Below, in pieces: positions 1 through 59,304 of a DNA stretch of 64,000 nt. The position numbers were made by a program, and so were the translations under genes. The notes beneath the pieces are model-generated. The model searched no databases. It was not told the DNA's origin and worked only from the letters and a program-made list of their open reading frames with translations. Source of the stretch: Parcubacteria group bacterium (GTDB lineage Bacteria; Patescibacteriota; Minisyncoccia; Moranbacterales; UBA2206); contig JBAYUI010000001.1 of the NCBI GenBank assembly GCA_041675165.1, positions 6,901 through 70,900 of the forward strand, written 5' to 3'. Within the stretch, counting starts at the first letter, position 1. Every line of letters begins with the position of its first letter.

Positions 1-213
1 GTCATTTTCTTTCAGTGCTGCATAGGTCAGATCCTTATAGGCCGTGAGCGCGCTGCCTGAGAAAAAATCACTGGCAATCTGGAATTTTCTGGTCACGAAG
101 ATCTTTTCTCCGTTTATGTTTATGCAGAAATAGCCTCTTTCCGGCACGATTTTTTCGATGGTGCCACCCATCTCCTCGACTACCTTTTTAATGATCGGTG
201 GATTTTTAATCAT
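1..213 (-). CDS. Partial CDS (N-terminus only, runs off the window): possible second ATP-grasp-type enzyme
   Basis: ATG on the minus strand at 211-213. The translation MIKNPPIIKKVVEEMGGTIEKIVPERGYFCININGEKIFVTRKFQIAS... is open to the window edge. It sits 4 nt upstream, on the same strand, of the RimK-like gene. The family assignment is tentative. Confidence 0.3.
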   Translation of the reverse strand, partial: MIKNPPIIKKVVEEMGGTIEKIVPERGYFCININGEKIFVTRKFQIASDFFSGSALTAYKDLTYAALKEND

Positions 214-217
214 AGGT

Positions 218-1651
218 TTATTTGTTCACATCAATTAAGAATTTCTTCAAATTGTAACGGCCGATGATGGTGGGGTAGGTCAGATGCGAGCGGTCGACCA
301 AGGTGACTCTAGTGGTGAACAGCGTGTTATTGAGTTGAATAGAAATGTTGATCATTGGCCGATAGGTGAAGCCATGGGAAGAGCGGACGGGAATAGTGGA
401 GGCGATGTCGGGTACGTTTTTGAAGATGTCCCAACGTTGTTCCTTGGTCAGATTTTTGAGTTCATCATAAGGACGTTTCAGTTTCTCGAATTCTTCCACG
501 GTTGCTTCAAAGCCTAATTGTTTGGCTAACTCATCATCAATGGATGACCAGTCGGCTCCTGTGTCGATTTTGGCTTCCACCTCGACAAATTTTTCATCTT
601 TGCCGATCAGCTTCACTTTTTCCACGGTGCCTATAACTTTCTTGCCGGAAATTTCTTCCAGTTCCTCTTCGATTTCTCCGCCGAATAAGTCTTTGCCGAG
701 GCGGATGCCGCGTTCCAATGTTTTGATCTTCAGATCGGAAATTTTTTGCAGCCGTTTTTTGAGGCCCGCCAAATTGGCGATCTGGATGGAGAGTCCTGGG
801 CGGGCGTTGAGCTCCACAATCACCGGGCCACGTTCTTTATCAATAGCAATGTCCGCCCCTAAAAAGCCTAGGCCGGAAATCTCTTGGGCGCGTACGGCCA
901 TTTTCAAAATATCATTCCAATAAGGAATTTTTATTCCGGAGAGCAAAAGCCTGGTGTCTGGAGCATATTCCACCATAGTGCTTTTGCCTTGGACGGCACT
1001 GGTGGTGGTGCCGGTGGCCATATCGATGCCGACGCCGATAGCGCCTTGTTGCAAATTGGCTTTGCCGCCGGACAACTTGGTCGGCAGGCGGAGCATGGCC
1101 ATTACGGGTACTTTATTGAAAATGATGATGCGGATGTCGGGGATGCCTTTGAAAGAATAGGGTTTGAAAAGTTTCAAAAGTTGCAAACGTTCTTCAAAAA
1201 AAGCGATGTCAGGCGTGCCGGACAAAGAGTATGATCCGTCTAAAATATTTCGGATGTGATTTTTCAGATCGTCAACAGTGATGAGGGAGCGGTCCGCTTT
1301 GATCCAGGCGTCTTCACGATTTTTTTTCTTGCCATAGACCACGACGATACCTTCACCGCCAAACCCGCGATTGGGTTTCAGGGCAAAACTGCCGGGCAAT
1401 GTCTGCCAGTCAAAATTTTCCAACTCATCGATCGTTTTTATCTTAGTGATGAGATGCGGCACGGGCAGATCATTTTTAGCTAGCACTTTTTTGCTGAGTA
1501 ACTTGTTGTCGGCTAATTTTTTGGCGCGCGACAAATTGAAAGGCCGGATATATTCCAGATTCCGCGAATTCATCCCCAAGATCTGACGGCTGATCTTGCG
1601 ATAAGCATTAATTTTTCGGAAAAAATCAAACATAATTAAATCATAATGCAA
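218..1651 (-). CDS. RimK-like ATP-grasp ligase (alpha-L-glutamate ligase-related) fused to a C-terminal retropepsin-like domain (putative ATP-dependent zinc protease, DUF785-like)
   Basis: 477-aa ORF. The N-terminal two thirds shows ATP-grasp/RimK-like motifs (FALKPNRGFGGEGIVVV, GIDMATG, VIVELNARPGLSIQIANLAG). The C-terminal ~150 aa (KIDTGADWSSID...VRSSHGFTYRPMINISIQL..TTRVTLVDRSHLTYPTIIGRYNL) resembles the retropepsin-like domain usually associated with RimK. Confidence 0.65.
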   Translation of the reverse strand: MHYDLIMFDFFRKINAYRKISRQILGMNSRNLEYIRPFNLSRAKKLADNKLLSKKVLAKNDLPVPHLITKIKTIDELENFDWQTLPGSFALKPNRGFGGEGIVVVYGKKKNREDAWIKADRSLITVDDLKNHIRNILDGSYSLSGTPDIAFFEERLQLLKLFKPYSFKGIPDIRIIIFNKVPVMAMLRLPTKLSGGKANLQQGAIGVGIDMATGTTTSAVQGKSTMVEYAPDTRLLLSGIKIPYWNDILKMAVRAQEISGLGFLGADIAIDKERGPVIVELNARPGLSIQIANLAGLKKRLQKISDLKIKTLERGIRLGKDLFGGEIEEELEEISGKKVIGTVEKVKLIGKDEKFVEVEAKIDTGADWSSIDDELAKQLGFEATVEEFEKLKRPYDELKNLTKEQRWDIFKNVPDIASTIPVRSSHGFTYRPMINISIQLNNTLFTTRVTLVDRSHLTYPTIIGRYNLKKFLIDVNK

Positions 1652-1680
1652 ATGATGCGAATCTTATGCAAATACGCGAA

Positions 1681-2331
1681 TTAGAGGTGTTTTATAATTT
1701 CTTTGAAGCGCAGATATTCACTCAGGCGCAGCCCCGTCCATTTGCCGATAGCTACGTTGATGGGCACGGTAATAAGGATGAGCCAGGGCGCGCTGGCAAT
1801 GAGACGGATTAATGTTTCGGAACTGGCGATGAAAAAACCGATGATGGAAATGAACAGCGTTTCAGTGGCCAGCAAGATGGCCACGCGCGTGCCTTTTTCT
1901 ATTTGCACGGCCACAAATTTTTCGACGATAGTGATCATAATGAGAATAGGGAAAATGGACACCGCGGCCAGACCCGTGCGGTGTAGATCGCCGCCTAAGG
2001 TCAAAACGCCCAAAGTTAAAATGGCTACGGCCGTGAGCATAATAGCCACGCGTGGCAGATAGAGCAGGCGAAAAGGTTTCAAAATGAAACGCATCAGCAT
2101 CCCAGTCACAATGACTGAAATGAAAATGGTGATGCCATATTTCAAGCCATTGGTGGCGAGAAATGCGAAGGTCACGATGAGTGGGGTGTAGATGCCAAAG
2201 GCCTTCACGCCCACCACTTGGCGGAGGAGCGCGATGAAAGTGGCGATGATTGGAAGCATTAAAAGTAGAATAACTGTTTCAAAAGGCAAACCTTTTTGGA
2301 TGAAGAAAAGAATGATCGGGCTGATGTGCAT
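1681..2331 (-). CDS. Polytopic (about 7 TM) membrane protein, likely the partner of the RimK-like ligase
   Basis: 216-aa highly hydrophobic ORF, same strand and immediately upstream of the ATP-grasp gene (30-nt gap). Its position matches the conserved 7TM component of RimK-like/transglutaminase/7TM cassettes. No transglutaminase-like domain is present. Confidence 0.5.
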   Translation of the reverse strand: MHISPIILFFIQKGLPFETVILLLMLPIIATFIALLRQVVGVKAFGIYTPLIVTFAFLATNGLKYGITIFISVIVTGMLMRFILKPFRLLYLPRVAIMLTAVAILTLGVLTLGGDLHRTGLAAVSIFPILIMITIVEKFVAVQIEKGTRVAILLATETLFISIIGFFIASSETLIRLIASAPWLILITVPINVAIGKWTGLRLSEYLRFKEIIKHL

Positions 2332-3768: not shown

Positions 3769-3794
3769 GGATTATAGCAAGAATAGATTGAATA

Positions 3795-3809
3795 GTCAAT
3801 AAAGTTGAC
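3795..3809. promoter_or_regulatory. Palindrome GTCAAtaaagTTGAC in the TrmB1/cassette divergent intergenic region; candidate operator
   Basis: A perfect 5-bp inverted repeat read from the sequence. Related (A)TTGTCAA...TTGACAAT palindromes lie upstream of the other two TrmB paralogs. Confidence 0.3.
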
Positions 3810-3901
3810 GAATAAATATGTATATTAGTAGATTGTGGCTAATAAAAAGCAATAAATGGATAAAATCAGGGTATGTTTAGATAATAAAGTAGACATAGAT
3901 A

Positions 3902-3930
3902 TTGACTAATTTCCCAAAACGCGCTATACT
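3902..3930 (+). promoter_or_regulatory. Sigma70-like promoter P1 (TTGACT-N17-gcgcTATACT) driving the small-ORF cassette array
   Basis: -35 TTGACT at 3902-3907, 17-nt spacer, -10 TATACT at 3925-3930. Architecture and GCGCTATACT box are near-identical to the promoter at 48569-48597. The downstream leader motif GATGAGTTACGAAAAAAAGA is also shared with locus 2. Confidence 0.55.
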
Positions 3931-4038
3931 GTGTAGTCAAGATGAGTTACGAAAAAAAGACAGTCATCCTGACAACAGTTCATTACAATTTATCACCCCG
4001 CACAATCAAGGGTTCAAAATTTGGAAAGGATAAGTGTT

Positions 4039-4209
4039 ATGAAAAGCGTAACAAAAGTAGATTGGAAAGATAAAAGATTCCACATAGGATGGAGAAGTGA
4101 GGCGGAGTGGTATGCGTATTGTATAAAAATGGGGAAATTGACGATTGATGATGAGAATCTTGATCGCTACCCCCTGCGTCGTGCACTACTATCTGTCAAA
4201 GGACGCTGA
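4039..4209 (+). CDS. Cassette A: small hypothetical protein (56 aa)
   Basis: ATG at 4039 preceded by the conserved GGAAAGGA RBS-bearing header. The track start at 4021 is a TTG inside the header. No recognisable domain. Confidence 0.4.
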   Translation: MKSVTKVDWKDKRFHIGWRSEAEWYAYCIKMGKLTIDDENLDRYPLRRALLSVKGR

Positions 4210-4291
4210 AAAAGCGACGGCGCTGAGTCATCAGCGTAGCAACAGAAGTGAGGCCAATGAGGGTATGCTCATCGCATCACAAATGACAATC

Positions 4292-4424
4292 GGGCAAGGA
4301 GATTTAAAAAATCTTTCTTGCCCTCTCAATTAAGATTTTGAAATAAATTCGAAGTCTTATAGGGAAAAGTTCTTTGTAAAATATTGCCCAAGCAAGGGCT
4401 CAAAATTTGGAAAGGAGAAAGGCC
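4292..4424 (+). repeat. Inter-cassette unit 1: hairpin GGGCAAGGAGAT-N7-ATCTTTCTTGCCC + TCTCAATTAAG + conserved spacer + CAAGGGCTCAAAATTTGGAAAGGAGA header
   Basis: A ~133-bp unit with homologous copies at 5223-5347 and 5903-6004. A degenerate copy lies at 4997-5080, and header-only copies at 3990-4038 and 4861-4882. Confidence 0.7.
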
Positions 4425-4853
4425 ATGAGAAATATTTTTATATTACTCAAAGATTTCGGTGGAATGCTTAGAGTTGTCAACGCATCTTATAAATCATTCA
4501 ACATCAAGCAGAACAATGGTTCGTTGATAGAAATGGAATGTTTAGAAAGCGATTGGGCAATAGAATGGCACGAGCAGTATAAAAGTCGTGAGCCTGGATA
4601 TAATTTTGGTACTGGATCTGAGCTAAGGGCAAAATTATTTCTTTTGCGAAGCATGAATAGCGAAATTCCCCATAATGGTGGATACAGTATGACAAAACTG
4701 TACACCGGCCCCTCAGTGAAGATTGTTATGAATGAAGTGGAATATAGACTGGAGAAAAATTCCTTTTCATTCTGTTATCTGGGTGGGGATACGTATTATG
4801 GGGGAACAAGCATTTTCCCTCTGGCTGAATATTTGAAAAAATATCTCAAATAA
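4425..4853 (+). CDS. Cassette B: hypothetical protein (142 aa)
   Basis: ATG at 4425 directly after the conserved header/RBS (GGAAAGGAGAAAGGCC). No recognisable domain. The track start at 4407 is a TTG inside the header. Confidence 0.45.
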   Translation: MRNIFILLKDFGGMLRVVNASYKSFNIKQNNGSLIEMECLESDWAIEWHEQYKSREPGYNFGTGSELRAKLFLLRSMNSEIPHNGGYSMTKLYTGPSVKIVMNEVEYRLEKNSFSFCYLGGDTYYGGTSIFPLAEYLKKYLK

Positions 4854-4882
4854 AACAGTCCCAAGGGTTACAGGGTAAGTTG

Positions 4883-4996
4883 ATGAAAATAACCTGTGAC
4901 TTTGTGGAAACATTTCACGACGGTAAGGTCAACGCCGATAATGACTATCATCCGACTGATTCACGACACGGATCAAGAAATTGGGAGAAAGACTAG
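4883..4996 (+). CDS. Cassette C: candidate 37-aa peptide behind a truncated header copy
   Basis: The truncated header CAAGGGTTACAGGGTAAGTTG is followed by ATG at 4883, ORF MKITCDFVETFHDGKVNADNDYHPTDSRHGSRNWEKD, stop at 4994-4996. Below the ORF-track size cutoff. Confidence 0.25.
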   Translation: MKITCDFVETFHDGKVNADNDYHPTDSRHGSRNWEKD

Positions 4997-5222
4997 AAAA
5001 CTAATCTTTCTCCTCTCAATTGGAATTTTAAAATTAATTTTTTGAAGTTTCATAGAGACGAAATTCTTTAAGATAGATTTTATTAGCGGGTATTTTTGTT
5101 CCACCAGGGGGGATAGATAGGGCTTTGGCTATAATCCAATGACAATTTCTGTTTTGTGGAACAGAAATACCTATTCTTGGTCCCCTGTCTATGATGACAA
5201 AGGAGGTGATAAATAAGTCTGC

Positions 5223-5347
5223 GGGCAAGAAGATCAACAAATCTTCTTGCCCTCTCAATTAAGGTTTTAAAATTATTCTGAAATCTTATAGGGAAGTGTT
5301 CTTTATAAAATATCGCCCGATCAATGGCTCAAAATTTGGAAAGGAGA
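5223..5347 (+). repeat. Inter-cassette unit 3: perfect hairpin GGGCAAGAAGAT-caacaa-ATCTTCTTGCCC + TCTCAATTAAG + spacer + header
   Basis: 12-bp perfect stem at 5223-5252, then sequence about 85% identical to unit 1 through the RBS. Confidence 0.7.
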
Positions 5348-5896
5348 ATGGCTATGCGTGACATGGAAACTCTTATTGCGTTGTCTAATGGCGGCTTGAA
5401 TTTCAAAATCGGAATGGTTGAATACCCCAAAGAAGTTGACCCATCTTTTCCGAAGATGTTTCTCTATCGAGAAACATCCTATGGCAGAGAAGGTGTGCTA
5501 TGCTGGGTTGCTACACCAGAAAATACTTGTTGCAAAGATAATGTGCTCAATATCGAGAGTCTTTCTTTTGTAAAAGTATGTGGAGAAGCATTAAAATGTA
5601 TTGGTACTTCTTTGATTGAAACAGAGAAGTTAGAGGCGAGGCTTCTTCAGGAAATTCCTTTTGGATCTGCTGCTGGGAGAGATAAGCAGGATCATGATGA
5701 ATATATGGAAATGATCCACGATGCTCTAAATGGATTCTGCCAGCAGGTTGAAAAAGTTTTCTGGGAGAATGTTTATAAGCTCTCTTGCGAGATGAATATT
5801 CAAGAATTGAATATGGTTAGGTGTCATCGTTGGATAAAGATTAAAATTGATAAAGAAATGCAGAATGGAAATCCTGCATTTCAGTGGTATTTGTAA
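5348..5896 (+). CDS. Cassette E: hypothetical Cys-containing protein (about 182 aa)
   Basis: ATG at 5348/5354 after GGAAAGGAGA. The track start at 5324 lies inside the conserved header, where a G>T change creates an ATG. No recognisable domain. Confidence 0.45.
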   Translation: MAMRDMETLIALSNGGLNFKIGMVEYPKEVDPSFPKMFLYRETSYGREGVLCWVATPENTCCKDNVLNIESLSFVKVCGEALKCIGTSLIETEKLEARLLQEIPFGSAAGRDKQDHDEYMEMIHDALNGFCQQVEKVFWENVYKLSCEMNIQELNMVRCHRWIKIKIDKEMQNGNPAFQWYL

Positions 5897-5902
5897 GTGT
5901 AT

Positions 5903-6004
5903 GGGCAAGGAGATGATTCAATCTTCTTGCCCCTTCAATCAAGATTGCAAAAATGTTTTGTGATTTTGTAGAAGAAAAATTGTTCTTTAAATCCAAAAGG
6001 AGAG
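5903..6004 (+). repeat. Inter-cassette unit 4: hairpin GGGCAAGGAGAT-gattca-ATCTTCTTGCCCC + TTCAATCAAG + shortened spacer
   Basis: Homologous to units 1 and 3 but lacks the CAAGGGCTCAAAATTTGG block. It ends in the RBS AAAAGGAGAGATGG. Confidence 0.6.
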
Positions 6005-6286
6005 ATGGATATGAAAAAGATAATCGGTGGATTCGTGTCTGTTATTATTGTGCCTATGTTCCTTGTTTTTTTATGCCAAATTTTTGTGTATGATATGGCG
6101 CTGGAAGCTGTCTGGCCATTTCAAAACAAGGAGTTGGGCGAGTATGTACAAACGCTCCTAGTCAGTAAGGGCATTCCAGTAATATATTTGTATATTGCTG
6201 GAAGAATAGCGGGCGTAGGTTTGCTCGCCATGCTGACAGCCAGCGTCCTTTCTTTCAGGAAAGGAAAAGAGTGCGGAAAAGCTTAA
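6005..6286 (+). CDS. Cassette F: small two-TM membrane protein (93 aa)
   Basis: Two hydrophobic helices, VSVIIVPMFLVFLCQIFV and IAGRIAGVGLLAMLTASVL. It is the last ORF of the array before a strong terminator. Confidence 0.45.
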   Translation: MDMKKIIGGFVSVIIVPMFLVFLCQIFVYDMALEAVWPFQNKELGEYVQTLLVSKGIPVIYLYIAGRIAGVGLLAMLTASVLSFRKGKECGKA

Positions 6287-6304
6287 AAACTTTTCTTGTT
6301 CAAC

Positions 6305-6342
6305 CCCGGCCGTGGAATATTTTTCCTCGGCCGGTTTTTGTT
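6305..6342 (+). terminator. Rho-independent terminator closing the cassette array
   Basis: CCGGCCG-tggaatatttttcct-CGGCCGG followed by TTTTTGTT. Confidence 0.6.
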
Positions 6343-6549
6343 ATCTTTACGAACTACCCGCCTCGACTCGCGGAGACGATCCGCTCGTCGACGCGAGGCG
6401 GGCGGATTAGTACGAATGTACGAATAAAAAAGTACGCGTCATTATTTGTGTAATATATAAATACAATGTGGGATTAATATTGACCGGTGAATATTCACCC
6501 CCTGATAGTGACCTCAGGGTTAAGTGGATGCGCGAATAAAACTTTTGCG

Positions 6550-6578
6550 TTGACTAGTGCTTCTTTTTTAGATAGTAT
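6550..6578 (+). promoter_or_regulatory. Candidate promoter TTGACT-N17-TAGTAT upstream of the DUF4325-like gene
   Basis: Read directly from the sequence. The ATG at 6593 follows with a short, AT-rich leader. Confidence 0.3.
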
Positions 6579-6592
6579 AAAGACTATAAAAT

Positions 6593-6874
6593 ATGCGTAT
6601 TGAAATTAAAAAATTTGGTGAAATTTTAATCTCTCGCCCGGCTGGTAGGGAGGCATACTTAGCAATGTCTGCTTATATTATCAAAGAATTTAACGAAGAT
6701 GAGGTTATTGAAATAGATTTTTCCGGAGTCAAAGTGTTAACTCCTGCCTGGGCGGATGAAGTGATAACGCCACTCGCGCAAAAATTCAAAAGTGTGAAAT
6801 TGCTCAATACGGAAAATTCCTCGGTGCAAGCTACGCTGAAAACTCTGCGGGAATATTCTGATTTGAAGATATAG
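6593..6874 (+). CDS. STAS-like small protein (DUF4325-like)
   Basis: 93 aa. The pattern MRIEIKKFGEILISRPAGREAY...EIDFSGVKVLTPAWADEV matches what I recall of the DUF4325 STAS-like family. Confidence 0.45.
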   Translation: MRIEIKKFGEILISRPAGREAYLAMSAYIIKEFNEDEVIEIDFSGVKVLTPAWADEVITPLAQKFKSVKLLNTENSSVQATLKTLREYSDLKI

Positions 6875-6882
6875 CAGACCTT

Positions 6883-6920
6883 AAAAACAGCGTAGCCTAG
6901 GCGCTATGCTGTTTTTGTTT
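6883..6920 (+). terminator. Rho-independent terminator
   Basis: Imperfect 15-bp stem AAAAACAGCGTAGCC/GGCGCTATGCTGTTTTT followed by a T-run. Confidence 0.5.
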
Positions 6921-6932
6921 AGCTGATATTCT

Positions 6933-6975
6933 TTCCTAAAGCCGAGCTTTAGGAAGATTAGCTTTAGGAAGATTA
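6933..6975. repeat. REP-like hairpin TTCCTAAAGC-cga-GCTTTAGGAA with a tandemly duplicated 3' arm (GCTTTAGGAAGATTA x2); also present at 35598-35622
   Basis: Exact 10-bp arms at both sites. Here it sits between convergent genes (the DUF4325-like gene on + and yebC on -). Confidence 0.5.
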
Positions 6976-7689
6976 TAAATTATCGAAAATCTCATCCACA
7001 TCATCCAGTTCGTCCAAAACTTCTAAGAGTTTTTCGTAAGCTTCTTTGGTGGCAGGATCGATTTCGGCGATGGTTTTGGGCAGATAGGACAGATTAGCCT
7101 CGGCGATTTTTTGGCCGGAGGCTTTCAACTTGTCTTGCACCTTTTGCAGCTCGGTCGGCTCGGTGAAGATAATGAATGCGCCTTCTTCGGTTTTCATATC
7201 TTTCGCACCAGCGTCGATGGCGACCATTTCTAGTTCTTCAAGATTGCTGTTTTCGTCAGTTTCGATGATGATGGCGCCGACTGGGTCAAAGTTCCACATG
7301 GATGAGCCGGCCTCGCCGAATTTGCCGCCGTTTTTGGTGAGAACGGTTTTCACTTCGCCGAGCGTGCGGTTTTTCTTGTCGGTGGTGGCTTTCACTAGCA
7401 TCATGACATTGCCTGGGCCTTTGGCTTCATAGATAACTTCTTCCATCTTGTCGCCTTTCAGTTCTCCGCTTCCGCGTTTCACCGCGCGATCAATGTTGGC
7501 CTTGGGCATGTTATAGGAAAGTGCTTTGTCGATGGCCGCGCGCAACTGAAAATTGGTGTCCGGATTGCCGCCGCCAGCTTGCGCCGCAATGACGATCGGT
7601 TTGGCGAGAACAGTGAAAATCTTGGCGCGCTTGGCGTCATTCACGCCCTTTCTTTGCTTGATTCCAGCCCAATGTGAGTGTCCTGACAT
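6973..7689 (-). CDS. yebC: YebC/PmpR-family DNA-binding regulatory protein
   Basis: MSGHSHWAGIKQRKG... is the canonical YebC N-terminus. The track ORF extends to 7767, but the internal Met at 7689 matches the family start. Confidence 0.85.
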   Translation of the reverse strand: MSGHSHWAGIKQRKGVNDAKRAKIFTVLAKPIVIAAQAGGGNPDTNFQLRAAIDKALSYNMPKANIDRAVKRGSGELKGDKMEEVIYEAKGPGNVMMLVKATTDKKNRTLGEVKTVLTKNGGKFGEAGSSMWNFDPVGAIIIETDENSNLEELEMVAIDAGAKDMKTEEGAFIIFTEPTELQKVQDKLKASGQKIAEANLSYLPKTIAEIDPATKEAYEKLLEVLDELDDVDEIFDNL

Positions 7690-7801
7690 AAAAGATATTG
7701 CTAAATGGTTAAATAGACATACTACTAACGGCCTATTCAGTCTAACAGTTAAAAAAGAGAAGTTCAAGGCGGATATGATCAGGCGGAAAGAAGGTTATTT
7801 T

Positions 7802-13145: not shown

Positions 13146-16100
13146 CTAGATATCCGTCACTCGTTCCACTTCTTCCAAGCTCGTCTCGCCTTCCAAGACG
13201 CGCAATACACCGTCTTGGGCCATGGTGAGCATGCCGAGGGAGATGGCTTTTTCTTCCAGTTCGCTCGTGATAGCGCCGCGAGTGATGAGATCTTGGATTT
13301 CGCGAGGCAGACAGAAGACTTCGCTGACCGTCATCCGGCCTTTGTAGCCGATATGATTGCAAATTTCACAACCCTTGGGCTTGTAGATGAATTCAATTTT
13401 TTCCGGCAAGTCAACTCCGGCTTTCGGGGATATGCTTTTCAATGCTTGCTCCAGTTTAATTTTTTCTTCTGCAGTCGGTGTCACTTTTTCTTTGCAATCG
13501 CACAGGCGTCGCACTAGTCGTTGCGCGATGAAAGCGTTGACGGAAGTGGCGATGTCTGAAGAGGCAACACCCATATTTTCCATTCTGGCCACGGCTCCCG
13601 CGGCATTATTAGTGTGGATGGTGGACAAGACCAAATGTCCCGTCAGTGCGGCTTGCACCGCCACTTTGGCCGTTTCATCATCGCGGATTTCCCCGATCAT
13701 CATAATGTCCGGATTTTGACGCAGCAGTTGGCGAAGGGCTGTGGCGAAAGTGTAGCCGCCCGTGTCATTGACGGGAGTTTGCAGGATGCCGGGGATCTGA
13801 TATTCGATCGGATCTTCCACGGTGATAATCTTGATCTCCGGCTTGTTCAATCTTTCCAAGATGCTGTAGAGCGTGGTGGTTTTGCCGCTGCCGGTCGGGC
13901 CGGTGTTCAAAATGACACCATTGGGCTTTTCAATTTCGCGCAGGATCTTTTCCAGATTCTGGCGGCGGATGCCGAGTTTTTCCAGATCATACTCCAAAGA
14001 AGATTTGAAAAGGAGTCGCATCACGACAGTTTCTCCATAGCCTCCGAGGATGATGGAAACACGCACATCGATCGACTTTTCCGCAATTTCAGAAATAGCA
14101 TCGTCGAATTTTATGGTGAAGCGGCTGTCGATCACGCCTTGGCGGACTTCGGTCTTGACGCCGGAAAGATCTTTGATCATTCCGAGGAGCGCCGGGTATT
14201 CATTAAGAGGCAATGAAACGACATTTTGCAATATGCCGTCGATGCGGAACCTGATCTTGACGCTATCCGCTTCCGGTTCGATATGGATATCTCCGACGCC
14301 CAGCATTGCGGCGGCTGAGACAATGAGACCGTTCAATTCGGTCGTCTTGGCCGACCTTAAGATCTCTTCCAATTTCTTGAAGTCCCTGATGTCATCTTTT
14401 ATCTTTTGGAAGGAATTTTTCCTGATGATGATCATCCGGCCCAGAGTTTGCGCCATCAATTTTTCATAAATATTTTCCAAAAATTCTCCTTGTCCCGTAA
14501 CATGCTTCACTTCATCAATGGAAGTTATGCCCGCTACGGCTTTCAAAATGCCGTCTTGCAGCATCGTAATCATCCCTGACTCAAGGGAGGCCACTGCCAA
14601 TTCTGTTTCGCCGGCCATATCCAATATCAATTTTTCAATCTCGTCGTGGATGGTGAGGACTTCAAAAATACCGATGCGCCCCTTATAGCCGATGCCGTTG
14701 CATTTAGCACAGCCTTTCGGTCGATAGAGAACGTCTATTTTTTTCGGAATATCCACTTTGGCTTTGGGAGAAATTATGGACAAGACTTTTTTGATCGATT
14801 CGATCGATTCTTCTGCGGGAACGTAGGCCTCTTTGCACTCGCAAAGTTTGCGCACTAAGCGCTGTCCGATAATGGCATTGACGGAGGGGGAGATCAAAGT
14901 TGGCTTTATGCCGAGCTCGATCAGTCGCGGAACGGCTCCCATTGCGTTATTAGTGTGAAGAGAAGAAAGCACCAGATGTCCTGTAAGAGCTGAATTTACG
15001 GCGATATCGGCCGTTTCATCATCACGGATCTCTCCCACCAAAATGATGTCCGGATCTTGACGCACAATGGCTCTGAGTCCATTGGCGAAAGTGTAACCTT
15101 TGGATTTTTCTATCTGTGTCTGGGAAATTCCTATAAGTTCATATTCGATCGGATCTTCGATGGTGATGATCTTTTTATTGGGCGTGTTCAATTTGTTTAT
15201 GATGGCATAGAGCGTGGTGGTTTTTCCGCTGCCTGTCGGACCGGTGTTTAAAATCATGCCATTAGGAGAATCTATCTGTTTTTGAACGGTCTCGTAAGCC
15301 AATCCTTGCAAGCCAAGATCCTCAACGTTTACGCAAATGGAGTCCGGATCCAATAGTCTCATAACGATCGATTCCCCGAAATTTCCAGGAATGACAGAAA
15401 CCCGCAAATTGATCTTTTTTGTCGCTAGATTGATTTCAAACGTGCCATCTTGGGCAATGGCCCGTAGGTTGATCTTCATTCCTGACATAATTTTTATCCG
15501 AGAGAGGATGCCGGTGAAAACTTTGAGCGGCAGAAAAGCAACATCTTGCAATACGCCATCAATACGATAACGCAAGCGGATCTCTTTGTCCTGCGGCTCG
15601 ATGTGGACGTCTGAAGCGCCGAGCTTGTAGGCACCGGCCAGCATAATATCGAGAATTTTTGTAACGGGCAGTTCGGTGATGCGGTTCTTGAGGGTCAAAA
15701 GGTCCTTCATCTCCTTTTCGAATTCTCGCAGGTCTTCATCGCTCATATTCAGGCTCATCTTATCCAAAGCATCCACGAAAACGACCTGTTTGTATTTATC
15801 CCAGATACGTTTCATATTGGTCTTTGAAATCACAAAGAGCTTGATCTTCCAGCCTTGATCATTTTCCAATTTTTTCAAAAATTCACCCATGTCCGCGCGC
15901 GTCGGATCGGTGGCGGCGATGGTCGCCACTTTGCCCTTGTAGTGGATGAGCGCGATGCCCAATTTCCGAGAGTCGTCTTCGCTCAGGAGCCTGACATCAT
16001 CCTTGCTTATCGGAATGAGATTGGTGTCAGCATAAGGCAAGCCCAGTCCGGAGGCGTAGGCTGAGGCGATCTCTTCTTCTTCTCTTTCTCGGAAAGCAGT

Positions 16101-16175
16101 GATAACTTTTTTCGTCCGAGTTTCTTTCTTAAGCTGTTCTCTGTCCGGATTCTTATTCGGAATAACTTTAAGCAT
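13146..16175 (-). CDS. Tandem-fused double PilB/GspE-family secretion ATPase (type IV pilus/T2SS assembly ATPase, two complete ATPase modules in one 1009-aa chain)
   Basis: Two full copies of the catalytic core in one ORF. Walker A GPTGSGKTTTLY appears twice; Asp box IIT(V/I)EDPIEY twice; His box LTGHLVLS(T/S)(I/L)HTNNA twice. A tetracysteine motif follows each module, and there is an N-terminal T2SSE_N-like domain. Confidence 0.8.
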   Translation of the reverse strand: MLKVIPNKNPDREQLKKETRTKKVITAFREREEEEIASAYASGLGLPYADTNLIPISKDDVRLLSEDDSRKLGIALIHYKGKVATIAATDPTRADMGEFLKKLENDQGWKIKLFVISKTNMKRIWDKYKQVVFVDALDKMSLNMSDEDLREFEKEMKDLLTLKNRITELPVTKILDIMLAGAYKLGASDVHIEPQDKEIRLRYRIDGVLQDVAFLPLKVFTGILSRIKIMSGMKINLRAIAQDGTFEINLATKKINLRVSVIPGNFGESIVMRLLDPDSICVNVEDLGLQGLAYETVQKQIDSPNGMILNTGPTGSGKTTTLYAIINKLNTPNKKIITIEDPIEYELIGISQTQIEKSKGYTFANGLRAIVRQDPDIILVGEIRDDETADIAVNSALTGHLVLSSLHTNNAMGAVPRLIELGIKPTLISPSVNAIIGQRLVRKLCECKEAYVPAEESIESIKKVLSIISPKAKVDIPKKIDVLYRPKGCAKCNGIGYKGRIGIFEVLTIHDEIEKLILDMAGETELAVASLESGMITMLQDGILKAVAGITSIDEVKHVTGQGEFLENIYEKLMAQTLGRMIIIRKNSFQKIKDDIRDFKKLEEILRSAKTTELNGLIVSAAAMLGVGDIHIEPEADSVKIRFRIDGILQNVVSLPLNEYPALLGMIKDLSGVKTEVRQGVIDSRFTIKFDDAISEIAEKSIDVRVSIILGGYGETVVMRLLFKSSLEYDLEKLGIRRQNLEKILREIEKPNGVILNTGPTGSGKTTTLYSILERLNKPEIKIITVEDPIEYQIPGILQTPVNDTGGYTFATALRQLLRQNPDIMMIGEIRDDETAKVAVQAALTGHLVLSTIHTNNAAGAVARMENMGVASSDIATSVNAFIAQRLVRRLCDCKEKVTPTAEEKIKLEQALKSISPKAGVDLPEKIEFIYKPKGCEICNHIGYKGRMTVSEVFCLPREIQDLITRGAITSELEEKAISLGMLTMAQDGVLRVLEGETSLEEVERVTDI

Positions 16176-19153: not shown

Positions 19154-19228
19154 GCGGGTGTCGTATAGTGGCTATTATATCAGCCTTCCAAGCTGAGGAG
19201 GGGGGTTCGATTCCCCCTACCCGCTCCA
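19154..19228 (+). tRNA. tRNA-Gly (anticodon TCC)
   Basis: Manually folded. Acceptor GCGGGTG/TACCCGC (one G-T pair). Anticodon stem TCAGC/GCTGA with loop CTTCCAA. T-arm GGGGG-TTCGATT-CCCCC. Discriminator T and an encoded CCA. Confidence 0.8.
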
Positions 19229-20677: not shown

Positions 20678-23600
20678 TTGGTATCTCTTTTCATTTTTAG
20701 AATGCTGCAAAACAAAAAAACAAAAAATAAGGAAAAAGAGGTTGAAAAACCGCTTAAAAAATCAATAAAAAAAGCTCTCATTGGAAAAAAGGGGTATTTT
20801 GCTGTCCAAAGAAGAAGGGGAGTGAAAAAAAATGATATTGCTAAAGCTAAAATAATTGAAAAAATAGAAGAATACGACCCTGAAATACTGAAAACGGTCA
20901 AATCTTGGAATTTTTCGGAAAAAAGAAAGGACGAGTTTTTCATAAGACAGACCCTTGAAGAATATGTTTCACTTGACCATACGGACAAGAAAGACTTGGG
21001 GAAAGCTTATTTTTGGAATTTATTCTTAGGAAAATTTGTTTTATCAATAAAACAAATTTTCAGACAAGTTTTTAAAGCGGGATTTAAGTTTTCTTATAGG
21101 GCAATATCCGTTTTGGCTATTGCTTTTTTGGTGTATGGAATTTCGCCGGCGGCTCTTTGCGCTCCCAAATCGGTCGCAATAACTACAAAGGCTGATTGGG
21201 ATCTGGGTCAGTTTTCCGGAGTGACTACACAGAATTCTGTCGATTCGATCCAGATGGAACCAAGTGGGACTTGGACAGCTCGAACTTGGGCATCACCAGA
21301 GGACACCATAGGCTTCGGGCATAGTTCTGTAATGGTGGGCGATTATCTCTATGTTTTCCGAGGTTATTCCGGAGATACTTTTTGGAGATATGATACTATC
21401 AAAAATACTTGGTCAACAATGGCGGGACTGCCACAACCGGCATTCTATGGGGCAGATATGACATATTTGGCCAGTACGGGAAAGATATATGCAATGTTCG
21501 GAGGCTATTCTCAAAAATTTTATAGCTATGATATAGATTCAAATTCTTGGACAAAACTGACTGATATGTTAGATACGCCATGGACAGGCGCGGCGATGGA
21601 AGGGAACGGAACGAGCATTTTTATTGTCAGGGGAAATGCCAGTACTGATTTTTGGGAATATGACACTGTTTCCAGTAGCTGGATAAATCGACCACCGATT
21701 ACGGCGGCTGTCGGAGCCGGGGCGGATATTGTGAATGGACAGGATGGAAATTTATATCTGGTCAGGGGATCTGGAACTCAAACTTTCTATCGGTATGATA
21801 TCGCTGGTCACAGATGGTACGCGACCGTGGCTCAACTCCCTTCGACTTGTGGCGCGGCGGCAAATGCAGCTTGCACTTTTGGAAACGAACAAAAAGGAGT
21901 CTATCGGAATGGAAAATTGTACTTTATGCGTTCTAATGGTACGCAAGATATGTTGCAATATGACATTTCTGGAAATGCTTGGACGGCTCTAACGACAGAT
22001 ATGACTCCTCAAGCGGTCAATTATGGTTCTTTGACTCTGAATACAAATGATAATTTAATATATGCCTTCAGAGCTAATGGCACGACTGATTTTTGGAAAT
22101 TCGATCCCGATGCGGCATCCGGACAAAAGTGGGTCGGACCAAAACAGGTGCAAACAACCGCAGGCGTCCTTTCTACTGTAGGCACAGGCAGTGATTTGGT
22201 TTGGAATCAGAATTATGGCGGAAATAACTACGTGTACGCTATCCAAGGCAGGGGAACGACGGGATTTTTTGTGTATAATGTAGCGAATAATTCTTGGACG
22301 ACCGGTACGGTACTTCCCATCTCTCCGAATAGTGATATGAAAGGAGCGATCAACCCGGCTAATGGAGCGCTTTATTATCCGCGTTCTGGATCGGCTAATA
22401 TCCTCATTTACAGCGGAGGCACTGCCGGTACTTGGGCCAATATGTCGCCGGCACCACCCATAGCACCGGCCGATGGAGCCAGTGTTGCTTTTCAAGGCAC
22501 CAATCTATATTATCGGCCCGGCAATGGAAGTCAGAATATTTATCGATACAATGGCACAAGTTGGTCAGCGGCAATCCCTATGGCAACTGTAGATAGCGGA
22601 ACGACCACGACTTATTATGCCAATACGGGAGGCAGAATGATTTCGGATGGAACTAATGTTTATGCAACACTGGGAGATGGTGAAACAACATTTTTGAAAT
22701 ATGACGGAAGTGCTTGGTTAACATTGTCCGCCACGCCATTCTCGCAATATTATGGGAGTGATATGACGTATGACAGCGTTAATTCAAAAATATATGCCTT
22801 AGCCGGATTATATAAGAATGAGACTTGGGAATATGACATAGCCACTGATGTTTGGAGAAGGTTGCCGAATAACCAGAAATATACTTTTGATAGGGGACCG
22901 TACAATGGTGCTTCGATCGAATATTCCGGCAATACCTCTTTATACGCAACTACAGGCCAAAGCCTTTCTGATATATGGAGTTATACCGTCTCAGCTACAA
23001 ATTTTCCAACTTCCGGAACTTACACTTATGCCAGTCAAATGATCGACCTCGGGCAAGTTTCCAGTGGTTCGGCATTCACTTTCAATGAGGAAAGGCCGGC
23101 CAATACTTCTACGAAGTACGAGCTGTGTACAAATGCGGACGGTGCGGCCTGTTCTTCTTGGCACAATGTAACGGACGGCGTGATCAGCGACCTAACCATT
23201 GGCAGGTATGTCTGGGTGAAAGTCACCTTATCTACGAGTGATGGGGCCAGCACTCCAACAGTGAATGATTATACCATTTCTTATGCTTCAAGCGATACCG
23301 TTCCTTCTTCGCCTACGACAATAGTGGCTAAATCTCAGCAAGTGGACGGGTCAGATATCGTAGCTGACACGGAATACGCATATGAGCACCCCTATTTTTC
23401 TTGGACAGCCGGAGCGGATAATGGCTCAGGAATAGATGGTTATTATGTCTATTGGGGAAAAAACAGCTCCGCGGATCCGGCAAGTGAAGGAAGTTACCAG
23501 GCAACTGGCCACTATACGGTCAACGAGGCGATGAATTATGATACTAGTCCGGTGCATCCCTACGGCACATATTATTTAATCGTGAAGGCTAAAGATAAGA

Positions 23601-59218: not shown

Positions 59219-59304
59219 GGAGAGTTCGCATAGTTGGTCTAGTGCGCACGCTTGGAAAGCGTGTGTGTCGCAAGGCACCGAGGGTTCGAATCCCTCACTC
59301 TCCG
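59219..59304 (+). tRNA. tRNA-Ser (anticodon GGA), class II long variable arm
   Basis: Acceptor GGAGAGT/ACTCTCC. Anticodon stem CACGC/GCGTG with loop TTGGAAA. Long variable arm. T-arm GAGGG-TTCGAAT-CCCTC. Discriminator G. Confidence 0.8.

What the first reader, a model, noticed from the sequence alone, without database searches (positions are those of the whole stretch)
1..2331. RimK-like ATP-grasp fused to a retropepsin-like protease domain, with a 7TM partner and a second upstream ATP-grasp-like gene
The gene order on the minus strand is 7TM membrane protein, then ATP-grasp::retropepsin fusion, then another ATP-grasp-like gene that runs off the window. RimK-type ligases associated with a retropepsin-like ATP-dependent zinc protease and a 7TM (inactive transglutaminase) protein have been predicted from comparative genomics to form a peptide-tagging or peptide-modification system (Iyer and co-workers' amidoligase analyses). 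Here the protease domain is fused C-terminally to the ligase, and the 7TM protein lacks a transglutaminase domain. That is a compact variant with a likely tandem second ligase.
Basis: partly seen in the sequence, partly recalled or inferred. Interest (0 to 1): 0.6.

Follow-up and report, generated by a model that had tools for sequence, protein, structure and literature searches.

The report
Fused Rlo-type ligase-protease operon
A candidate-phylum (Moranbacteria) bacterium carries a stripped-down version of the recently described Pseudomonas "Rlo" envelope-stress system, in which the peptide ligase and the retrovirus-like protease are one protein, paired with a small membrane protein and followed by a fast-changing set of extra ligase genes.

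Summary
On the minus strand lie a 216-aa 7TM protein (PF14402, no transglutaminase domain), a 471-aa ATPgrasp_ST/TIGR02291 ligase fused C-terminally to a PF05618 retropepsin domain, and the first 71 codons of another ATP-grasp gene.

Two contigs 100% identical to the window over the shared 2.5 kb continue past its edge. They show four further, mutually divergent ATP-grasp genes and then a class A PBP.

The module is a distant variant of the rloABC operon of P. aeruginosa (mBio 2025):
- The ligase is 42% identical to a canonical RloC.
- The 7TM protein is 30% identical to the membrane half of RloB.
- The protease is 26% identical to RloA and keeps DTGA plus three of the four pseudosymmetric Glu-contact residues, including the two whose mutation abolishes RloA function.

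It differs in three ways: no ectodomain, a cytoplasmic fused protease instead of a secreted one, and ligase-then-protease order, opposite to the published RimBK hybrid.

The 7TM+fusion pair is present in 76/76 informative Moraniibacteriota loci. The interval between it and PBP1A is a variable cassette of 0-4 ligases, glycosyltransferases and MATCAP peptidases.

The most likely function is membrane-coupled synthesis and trimming of an acidic peptide. This is inferred, not shown.

Verdict: a new variant of a known kind, of moderate interest.

The parts
1681..2331 (-). 7TM membrane protein (216 aa), homologous to the membrane half of RloB and lacking any ectodomain. Predicted topology is N-terminus outside, C-terminus inside.
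   Evidence: PF14402, E 1.8e-29. NF052267 RloB positions 309-507 of 508 only. 30% identity to residues 310-505 of Legionella RloB, E 3e-21. K+R count is 13 inside against 4 outside, and cytoplasmic loops 3 and 5 are among the most conserved segments. Found directly upstream of the fusion gene in 76/76 loci.
218..1633 (-). Fusion gene (471 aa from the ATG at 1633; an in-frame TTG at 1651 would give 477 aa): RloC-type ATP-grasp ligase joined to a retropepsin domain.
   Evidence: The identical protein P0001 is in NCBI as a Parcubacteria MAG protein. AF2 model has mean pLDDT 88.
683..1633 (-). Ligase domain (residues 1-317), ATPgrasp_ST / TIGR02291 family, with catalytic residues intact.
   Evidence: PF14397, E 8.8e-70. 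TIGR02291 scores 287.7 bits against a cut-off of 314.2. 42% identity over 304 aa to a canonical RloC, which ends exactly at the position of F317. Invariant K86, D261, E274 and N276. Foldseek finds ArgX/LysX, RimK and CphA1.
638..682 (-). Inter-domain acidic linker GGEIEEELEEISGKK (residues 318-332). It is near-invariant yet predicted flexible. Its function is unexplained.
   Evidence: Conservation in 80 species: G318/G319/E326/G330 80/80, E320 79, E322 76. Absent from stand-alone RloC. pLDDT below 50 at residues 321-324.
218..637 (-). Retropepsin-like aspartic protease domain (residues 333-471, plus the stop codon). DTGA is at 554..565.
   Evidence: PF05618, E 1.7e-11. RloA3/RloA/RloA2 models hit weakly. 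PDB 9g58/9g59, E about 8e-5. 26% identity to Legionella RloA. D357-T-G-A, R425 and R448 are 80/80; K355 is K or R in 80/80.
1..213 (-). First 71 codons of accessory ligase G2 (318 aa in full), a stand-alone ATP-grasp resembling the cyanophycin synthetase G domain. The gene runs off the window.
   Evidence: Translation. Full gene at L001 2313-3269. TIGR02068 positions 211-472, E 1.9e-52. PDB CphA1 7wac/7lg5, E about 1e-31. The gap to the fusion gene is 4 bp.

Best explanation
This is the Patescibacteria (Moraniibacteriota) form of the Rlo module, a membrane-coupled pair that builds and trims a peptide.

Shown by homology:
- A 7TM protein equivalent to the membrane half of RloB sits in the membrane with its N-terminus outside. 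It presents highly conserved, basic cytoplasmic loops.
- Its partner is a cytoplasmic, catalytically intact RloC-type ATP-grasp amino-acid ligase.
- The same polypeptide carries a catalytically intact RloA/RimB-type retropepsin domain.

Inferred:
- The ligase uses ATP to add amino acids, most likely glutamate or other acidic residues, in alpha-linkage to a carboxylate acceptor at the membrane.
- The retropepsin domains of two fusion subunits dimerise. They cut the acidic chains, which limits their length, and may stimulate the ligase as RimB does RimK.
- The 7TM protein hands the product to, or couples synthesis with, the cell envelope.
- The downstream ligases (four here: one like the cyanophycin synthetase G domain, two RimK-like, one of unclear type) extend or diversify the peptide. 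They belong to a rapidly changing cassette.

Unlike the Pseudomonas system, the protease must act on the cytoplasmic side.
For: Family assignments and pairwise identities to a canonical, annotated rloABC operon on a Legionella plasmid (L089): ligase 42%, 7TM 30%, protease 26%.

Catalytic integrity:
- The ATP-grasp K/D/E/N residues are invariant.
- DTGA is 80/80. The equivalents of RloA K46, R114 and R137 are conserved: K355 (K or R in 80/80), R425 and R448 (80/80). The paper models all three as glutamate contacts. R114A and R137A had the strongest effect on cleavage and failed to rescue the mutant (PMC12239564).

Nothing in the fusion's sequence or AF2 model suggests a signal peptide or membrane-spanning segment; no dedicated predictor was run.

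Operon structure: gaps of 4-47 bp.

Obligate pairing:
- 7TM directly upstream in 76/76 loci.
- Independent 7TM::ATPgrasp_ST gene fusions exist (P0256, P0260).

Precedents:
- RimB binds RimK, raises its ATPase about fourfold and is needed for poly-alpha-glutamate synthesis. An active RimB-RimK hybrid exists (PMC11957791).
- Deleting rloB or rloC suppresses the loss of the RloA proteases, which places ligase and 7TM upstream of the protease.

The cassette genes in related loci are all amide-bond ligases or C-terminal peptidases: RimK-like, CphA G-like and CphA M-like ligases, and MATCAP/DUF1704. That fits a peptide product with a free C-terminus.
Against: - No biochemical data exist for any RloC or RloB, so the amino acid added and the acceptor are unknown even in Pseudomonas.
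- The ligase and protease score below NCBIfam's curated cut-offs for the Rlo models.
- The protease here carries a helical insert (residues 367-404) and lacks the basic flap residues of RloA: R92 is Ile, and K95/K97/R99 are not conserved. Acidic specificity is therefore only partly supported.
- The 7TM model is mediocre (pLDDT 67) and has no solved structural relative. A transport role is a guess.
- Some related cassettes contain glycosyltransferases, which points to a glycan rather than a pure peptide context.
- PBP1A adjacency may be mere conserved synteny near the origin. It has its own promoter-like site.
Confidence: 0.55

Rival explanations
1. A purely cytoplasmic RimK/RimB-type system. 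[quoted passage not shown] The 7TM protein is only a regulator or anchor.
For: The ligase-protease fusion parallels the active RimBK hybrid. The protease is cytoplasmic like RimB. Two accessory ligases (G3, G5) are RimK-family-like.
Against: The fused ligase scores 44.5 bits on the RimK family model (cut-off 143.4) but 287.7 bits on TIGR02291, and is 42% identical to RloC. The 7TM partner is present in 76/76 loci, and rim loci have none. G3 and G5 are absent from most genomes. No rpsF gene and no acidic-tailed ORF lies in the window.
Confidence: 0.1
2. A peptidoglycan-directed system. The ligases add amino acids to the stem peptide, build a cross-bridge, or modify a wall synthase. The neighbouring class A PBP then uses the product, and the cassette sets a species-specific wall chemotype.
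For: PBP1A follows on the same strand in 54/57 loci and in a distant lineage (L086). Rlo mutants in Pseudomonas have cell-shape, beta-lactam and hypo-osmotic phenotypes. An RloB mutant of Shewanella over-produces vesicles. One related cassette carries a Mur-ligase-fold protein. From general knowledge, ATP-grasp ligases such as D-aspartate ligase build cross-bridges.
Against: PBP1A has its own promoter-like site, and the whole RuvB-YebC-RuvC ... DciA-DnaN-DnaA neighbourhood is syntenic. Adjacency may therefore be historical. The Mur-like protein matches the cyanophycin synthetase M domain far better than MurE (E 7e-49 against 2e-22). No Mur or Fem genes are in the block.
Confidence: 0.15
3. Amino-acid decoration of a surface glycopolymer. 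The ligase amidates a sugar acid of a polysaccharide or a lipid-linked precursor, as the Pfam name 'sugar-transfer associated ATP-grasp' implies. The 7TM protein binds the lipid-linked intermediate.
For: The Pfam family name. GT4, GT2 and GT8 glycosyltransferases occur in the variable interval of several related loci. The hypervariability resembles that of surface-polysaccharide loci.
Against: The window's own cassette has no glycosyltransferase. A fused endopeptidase, and in relatives a MATCAP carboxypeptidase, argues for a peptide chain rather than a single amidated residue. The closest structural relatives all ligate onto peptide or protein carboxylates.
Confidence: 0.1
4. A graspetide or other RiPP pathway, in which the ATP-grasp enzymes macrocyclise a ribosomal precursor peptide and the retropepsin removes the leader.
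For: Weak hits of G3 and G5 to ATP-grasp RiPP maturase models (E about 1e-4). PsnB appears among the Foldseek matches.
Against: There is no room for a precursor ORF: intergenic gaps are 4-47 bp. The hits lie far below cut-offs. The fused ligase clearly belongs to the RloC family.
Confidence: 0.02

Closest known systems
rloABC operon of Pseudomonas aeruginosa (Lormand et al., mBio 2025, PMC12239564); a canonical copy is annotated on Legionella adelaidensis plasmid 5 (L089)
   Same: The same three protein families sit in one operon: a TIGR02291/ATPgrasp_ST ligase (42% identity), the 7TM domain of RloB (30%) and a PF05618 retropepsin (26%). The retropepsin keeps DTG and the K46/R114/R137 equivalents.
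   Different: The 7TM protein lacks the periplasmic inactive transglutaminase domain. The protease has no signal peptide and is fused to the C-terminus of the cytoplasmic ligase, so it works in a different compartment. Gene order is B-C::A rather than A-B-C. Up to four extra ligases follow. The host is a Patescibacterium, whereas the paper reports 96% of RloB hits in Proteobacteria. All three proteins score below the NCBIfam Rlo cut-offs.
RimBK hybrid and the RimB-RimK pair (Little et al., JBC 2025, PMC11957791)
   Same: A retropepsin-like endopeptidase is physically joined to an ATP-grasp alpha-L-glutamate-type ligase in the cytoplasm. It sets a precedent that the protease both trims poly-Glu and stimulates the ligase.
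   Different: Domain order is reversed: RimB is N-terminal in RimBK. The ligase here is RloC-type, not RimK (44.5 bits against a cut-off of 143). Rim loci have no 7TM partner. RimBK is found in Flavobacteriales and Rhodobacterales.
Cyanophycin synthetase CphA1 (PDB 7lg5, 7wac)
   Same: Accessory ligase G2 matches the G (ATP-grasp) domain, E 1.9e-52. In a close relative (L092) a separate protein matches the M (Mur-like) domain, E 7e-49. Both systems make non-ribosomal polyamide chains with ATP-dependent ligases.
   Different: The domains are split into separate proteins. No N domain is present. No M-domain gene lies in this genome's block as far as L001 extends. G2 is present in only part of the related genomes.
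Eukaryotic tubulin-tail code (TTL/TTLL ligases, MATCAP and CCP peptidases). This is an analogy only.
   Same: ATP-grasp ligases that add amino acids to an acidic C-terminal tail are paired with dedicated peptidases. MATCAP-family (PF08014) domains are fused to or encoded next to the ligase in related loci, and G4 has a weak TTL hit.
   Different: No acceptor protein has been identified, and there is no evidence of tubulin or FtsZ involvement. The window's own locus has no MATCAP gene.

Membership tests
Rlo system (RloA/RloB/RloC) | RloC: cytoplasmic ATP-grasp of the TIGR02291 / PF14397 family | tested here: met
   PF14397 scores 235.5 bits against a cut-off of 31.4. 42% identity over 304 aa to RloC of a canonical operon, E 3e-76. 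Caveat: TIGR02291 scores 287.7 bits, just under its cut-off of 314.2.
Rlo system (RloA/RloB/RloC) | [quoted passage not shown] | tested here: not met
   Only the 7TM half is present: PF14402 positions 58-247 and NF052267 positions 309-507 of 508, at 82 bits against a cut-off of 900. All 120 top homologues are 7TM-only.
Rlo system (RloA/RloB/RloC) | RloA: secreted retropepsin-like protease with an N-terminal signal peptide | tested here: not met
   The retropepsin domain is present (PF05618, 44.6 bits against 27; DTGA). It is fused behind the cytoplasmic ligase and has no signal peptide. The RloA, RloA2 and RloA3 models score 32-46 bits against cut-offs of 210-280.
Rlo system (RloA/RloB/RloC) | The three functions are encoded together in one operon | tested here: met
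   The 7TM gene lies directly upstream of the fusion in the window, with a 47-bp gap, and in 76/76 related loci.
Rlo system (RloA/RloB/RloC) | Role in hypo-osmotic tolerance, cell shape and beta-lactam resistance; loss of rloB or rloC suppresses loss of rloA | not testable with these tools
   Genetic phenotypes are known only from P. aeruginosa. Moranbacteria are uncultured.
RimBK hybrid / RimK family | Ligase belongs to the RimK family (TIGR00768) | tested here: not met
   44.5 bits against a cut-off of 143.4.
RimBK hybrid / RimK family | RimB domain lies N-terminal to RimK | tested here: not met
   The order here is ligase (residues 1-317) then protease (333-471). RimBK has RimB at residues 1-163.
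RimBK hybrid / RimK family | Acts on the C-terminal glutamates of ribosomal protein S6 | not testable with these tools
   No rpsF gene in the window. No genome-wide data were available.
Clan AA retropepsins (PF05618 subgroup) | Catalytic Asp-Thr/Ser-Gly motif and a fold matching solved RloA structures | tested here: met
   DTGA is 80/80. phmmer hits 9g58/9g59. The AF2 domain has pLDDT of about 88-96. The obligatory homodimer could not be modelled.
ATP-grasp superfamily | ATP-binding Lys, Gly-rich loop, and the Mg-binding Asp/Glu/Asn triad | tested here: met
   K86, G90/G93/G95, D261, E274 and N276 are invariant in 47 sequences. Foldseek probability is 1.00 to ArgX, RimK and CphA1.
Cyanophycin synthetase (for the gene at window 1-213) | N, G (ATP-grasp) and M (Mur-like) domains in one protein | tested here: not met
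   G2 covers only TIGR02068 positions 211-472, scoring 178 bits against a cut-off of 850. It has no N or M domain.
Anti-phage defence systems (PADLOC) | Any protein of the block matches a defence model | tested here: not met
   0 hits for all six proteins.

The most novel reading that the evidence does not exclude
The locus is a bacterial 'tail-code' machine. A membrane-docked ligase/protease core, together with a fast-evolving cassette of ligases, carboxypeptidases and glycosyltransferases, writes and edits a species-specific peptide on an envelope-associated acceptor. This would give these episymbiotic, small-genome bacteria a variable surface or wall chemistry. The invariant acidic linker (GGEIEEExEEISGKK) would act as a built-in control element: a pseudo-substrate, a docking helix for the 7TM loops, or a self-processing or priming site.
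Probability: 0.15. Interest if true: 0.75.

Novelty: new variant of a known kind. Interest (0 to 1): 0.5.

Why it matters
The biochemical function of the Rlo system is still unknown, even though it affects antibiotic tolerance, biofilm formation and cell shape in Pseudomonas. This natural minimal version narrows the question in four ways:
- The transglutaminase ectodomain is dispensable for the core partnership.
- The ligase and protease can work as one cytoplasmic polypeptide, so they share a substrate.
- The conserved face of the 7TM protein is cytoplasmic.
- The accessory genes that travel with it are all amide-bond ligases or C-terminal peptidases, which points to a peptide product.

The system is near-universal in Moraniibacteriota and is also seen in Jacksonbacteria-type MAGs, lineages with about 1-Mb genomes and few spare genes. 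It is therefore likely to matter for their envelope. The fusion protein and its 216-aa partner would be a compact pair for reconstitution.

Tried and rejected
- **Exact-protein look-up of the ATG-start form** found nothing. The TTG-start form did.
- **A full-text search for the Pfam and TIGRFAM identifiers** returned no papers.
- **Defence-system reading** rejected: no PADLOC hits.
- **RiPP/graspetide reading** rejected: no space for a precursor ORF, and only marginal hits.
- **Recent tandem duplication of ligases** rejected: the five ATP-grasps are barely alignable with each other. The best pair, G3-G5, is 28% identical.
- **Linker as a poly-Glu cleavage site under published rules** considered unlikely. 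It has only three contiguous Glu, whereas RimB needs at least 6 and RloA at least 8.
- **Search for an acceptor in the window** (rpsF, or ORFs with acidic tails) found nothing relevant.
- **G4** has no sequence relative in the PDB.
Full report
**1. What is in the window**

Three co-directional genes lie on the minus strand.

- The first gene, at 2331..1681, encodes a 216-aa membrane protein.
- The second is a 471-aa protein, counting from the ATG at 1633. An in-frame TTG at 1651 would give 477 aa. The database copy P0001 uses the ATG.
- The third begins at an ATG at 213 and opens an ORF that leaves the window after 71 codons.

Pfam assignments:

| Gene | Family | Region | E-value |
|---|---|---|---|
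| Membrane protein | PF14402 7TM_transglut | profile positions 58-247 only | 1.8e-29 |
| Second gene, N-terminal part | PF14397 ATPgrasp_ST | residues 30-305 | 8.8e-70 |
| Second gene, C-terminal part | PF05618 (Zn_protease / RimB-like) | residues 339-476 | 1.7e-11 |

The membrane protein has no transglutaminase domain. The second gene has a DTGA motif at 565..554. The one exception is that the third gene is downstream, not upstream, in the direction of transcription.

**2. Beyond the window edge**

Two public contigs, L001 and L002, are 100% identical to the window over 2.5 kb. They continue past its end and show the order:

7TM, fusion, then four further ATP-grasp genes of 318, 304, 315 and 293 aa (here called G2 to G5), then a class A penicillin-binding protein of 860 aa, then DciA on the other strand.

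- Gaps between the six genes are 4-47 bp.
- The five ligases are not recent duplicates. Only G3 and G5 align well (28% identity), and the rest are barely detectable.
- G2 matches the ATP-grasp G domain of cyanophycin synthetase. It hits TIGR02068 positions 211-472 with E 1.9e-52, and PDB entries 7wac and 7lg5 with E about 1e-31.
- G3 and G5 are RimK-like but score below the family cut-off.
- G4 has only weak RimK, ATPgrasp_ST and TTL hits and no sequence relative in the PDB.

**3. Which known system it belongs to**

NCBIfam points to the Rlo system:

- The ligase scores 287.7 bits on TIGR02291 (cut-off 314.2).
- The protease hits the RloA3, RloA and RloA2 models weakly.
- The 7TM protein hits the RloB model only at positions 309-507 of 508.

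The rloABC operon was described in 2025 in P. aeruginosa (PMC12239564):

- RloA is a secreted retropepsin that cuts runs of at least 8 Glu.
- RloB is an inactive transglutaminase fused to 7 TM helices.
- RloC is a cytoplasmic ATP-grasp protein.
- Loss of the three RloA paralogues causes hypo-osmotic death, shape defects and beta-lactam sensitivity. Deleting rloB or rloC suppresses these defects.

I found a canonical, annotated rloABC operon on a Legionella plasmid (L089) and compared it directly:

| Window protein | Canonical partner | Identity | E-value |
|---|---|---|---|
| Ligase | RloC | 42% over 304 aa | 3e-76 |
| 7TM protein | RloB residues 310-505 | 30% | 3e-21 |
| Protease | RloA | 26% | 4e-10 |

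RloC ends exactly where the window protein has F317. Residues 318-332 (GGEIEEELEEISGKK) are therefore the fusion linker, and the RloA-like domain starts at K332-V-I-G.

Against the solved RloA structure 9g58, the window protein keeps K46, D48, R114 and R137 as K355, D357, R425 and R448. These include the two positions (R114, R137) whose mutation abolishes RloA function. It does not keep R92 or the flap lysines. The AF2 model of the protease domain also shows a helical insert at residues 367-404.

**4. Differences from the known systems**

- There is no ectodomain on the 7TM protein.
- The protease is fused behind a cytoplasmic ligase, and neither the sequence nor the AF2 model suggests a signal peptide or TM segment (no dedicated predictor was run). 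It must therefore act in the cytoplasm, unlike secreted RloA.
- The only published ligase-retropepsin hybrid, RimBK, has the opposite domain order and a true RimK ligase (PMC11957791). The window ligase scores only 44.5 bits on the RimK family model. This is an independent fusion within the Rlo branch.
- Four extra ligases follow.
- The host is a Patescibacterium. The identical protein is deposited as a Parcubacteria-group MAG protein, and the best hits are Candidatus Moranbacteria. The mBio paper reports 96% of RloB hits in Proteobacteria.

**5. Conservation**

- A scan of one genome per species found at least 562 genomes with a relative. The best 80 loci all carry the same Moraniibacteriota-type locus; most are titled Moraniibacteriota/Moranbacteria or Parcubacteria and the rest appear mislabelled.
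- The 7TM gene sits directly upstream of the fusion in 76/76 loci with enough sequence.
- RuvC precedes it in 71/74 loci.
- PBP1A follows on the same strand in 54/57 loci.
- Across 80 species, DTGA, R425 and R448 are 80/80, and the ATP-grasp catalytic residues are invariant.
- The 7TM protein is very conserved, with mean column identity of 77% in 31 sequences. The positive-inside count is 13 against 4, giving an N-out, C-in topology. Its cytoplasmic loops RFILKPFRLLYLPR and EKFVAVQIEKG are among its most conserved segments, together with TM2 and TM5.
- The fused architecture also occurs in Jacksonbacteria and other Parcubacteria.
- Wider searches show related architectures:
  - ligase::retropepsin::MATCAP triple fusions of about 790 aa;
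  - 7TM::ligase fusions;
  - a 7TM protein with a PKD ectodomain.

**6. The variable cassette**

Between the fusion gene and PBP1A, the 66 scored loci carry 0, 1, 2, 3 or 4 recognised accessory ATP-grasp domains, in 8, 23, 23, 11 and 1 loci respectively. The window's genome has the maximum of four. The types occur in many orders.

The interval also holds several other kinds of gene:

- glycosyltransferases (GT4, GT2, GT8);
- stand-alone MATCAP/DUF1704 proteins;
- other ATP-grasp types;
- unknown proteins.

Close relatives differ sharply:

| Locus | Core fusion identity | Cassette content |
|---|---|---|
| L091 | 93% | G2 at 90%, G5 at 81%, G4 at only 62%, no G3 |
| L092 | 90% | G2 at 74%, two different RimK-like genes, and a Mur-fold protein matching the cyanophycin synthetase M domain (E 7e-49) |
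| L093 | 80% | Four other ligases |

The cassette therefore turns over much faster than its flanks.

**7. Mechanism**

Shown by homology: there is an intact ATP-grasp ligase, an intact retropepsin and a 7TM partner of the Rlo type in one operon.

Inferred from the Rim and Rlo literature and from the company these genes keep:

- The ligase builds alpha-linked, probably acidic, peptide chains at the membrane.
- The fused retropepsin dimerises between subunits, trims the chains and may stimulate the ligase.
- The 7TM protein couples this to the envelope.
- The accessory ligases diversify the product.

The structural neighbours of the ligase (ArgX/LysX, RimK, CphA1) all ligate onto peptide or protein carboxylates.

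Still open:

- The acceptor is unknown.
- The role of PBP1A adjacency is unclear. PBP1A has its own promoter-like site, and the whole origin-proximal neighbourhood is syntenic.
- The meaning of the linker is unresolved. It is as conserved as the active sites, absent from stand-alone RloC and predicted flexible. With only three contiguous Glu, it does not fit the published cleavage rules.

**8. Verdict**

The finding is a previously undescribed variant of a recently characterised but biochemically unsolved system. It is widespread in one candidate phylum, and its proteins are already in databases under generic names. Interest is moderate (0.5). It is useful as a minimal natural form of Rlo and for its hypervariable ligase cassette, but no new principle has been demonstrated.

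Noticed in passing
L001 2313-6065; L091, L092, L093; L006-L085 (interval between the fusion gene and PBP1A): This interval is a hypervariable cassette. It holds 0-4 accessory ATP-grasp ligases in varying order, and sometimes glycosyltransferases, MATCAP/DUF1704 peptidases or unknown proteins. Genomes whose core fusion is 90-93% identical carry different cassettes.
   Followed up: partly
L092 10421-11377 and 13229-14491: A split cyanophycin-synthetase-like pair. One is a stand-alone G-domain ATP-grasp (74% identical to the window's G2). The other is a separate 420-aa protein matching the CphA M (Mur-like) domain at TIGR02068 positions 481-859, E 7e-49. No N domain is present.
   Followed up: partly
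window 638-682 (minus strand; protein residues 318-332): The acidic inter-domain linker GGEIEEELEEISGKK is near-invariant across 80 species. It is absent from stand-alone RloC and predicted disordered. Its function is unexplained.
   Followed up: partly
P0128, P0138, P0146 and similar proteins; L086 3474-5876: Triple fusions of about 790-800 aa, ATPgrasp_ST::retropepsin::MATCAP(DUF1704), form many 50%-identity clusters. In L086 the partner 7TM protein carries an N-terminal PKD domain instead of a transglutaminase domain. The same YebC-RuvC ... PBP1A synteny holds.
   Followed up: partly
window 3769-6972: A 3.2-kb stretch of lower G+C (0.37-0.39, against about 0.45 nearby). It holds orphan plus-strand ORFs at 4407-4853 and 5324-5896 with no Pfam hits. 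It lies between YebC (7767..6973) and the TrmB-like regulator/RuvC. Relatives L003 and L092 have YebC directly next to RuvC, so it looks like an insertion.
   Followed up: partly
window 3771-3799 (minus strand) and L001 6055-6083: The best sigma-70-like matches (11/12) lie upstream of the TrmB-like gene and upstream of PBP1A. The only long-stem (11-pair) terminator-like hairpin follows PBP1A; weaker matches (5-6 pairs) occur inside the block. This hints at a long TrmB-RuvC-7TM-ligase transcript and a separate PBP1A transcript. These are consensus matches only.
   Followed up: no
window 20678-28462 and 13146-16175: A 2594-aa protein with Kelch, fn3 and PhoD_N-like domains, and a 1009-aa protein with two T2SSE (PilB-like) ATPase stretches.
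   Followed up: no
L009, L011, L016, L057, L064, L075 and other loci (record titles): Many third-party MAG records carry this Moranbacteria-type locus (60-70% identical fusion, same synteny). Their titles read 'uncultured Bdellovibrionales', 'Micavibrio', 'Bathyarchaeia archaeon' or 'Fimivivens'. These are probably taxonomic mislabels.
   Followed up: no
L089 2960-3472: The annotated start of the RloA-like gene on Legionella adelaidensis plasmid 5 (WP_232048481.1, named 'RimK/LysX family protein') omits an in-frame upstream stretch, MRLVLFFIFSWTFLCGST, that looks like a signal peptide.
   Followed up: partly
window 19154-19225 and 59219-59304: Two tRNA genes on the plus strand. They are the only Rfam matches in the window.
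   Followed up: no
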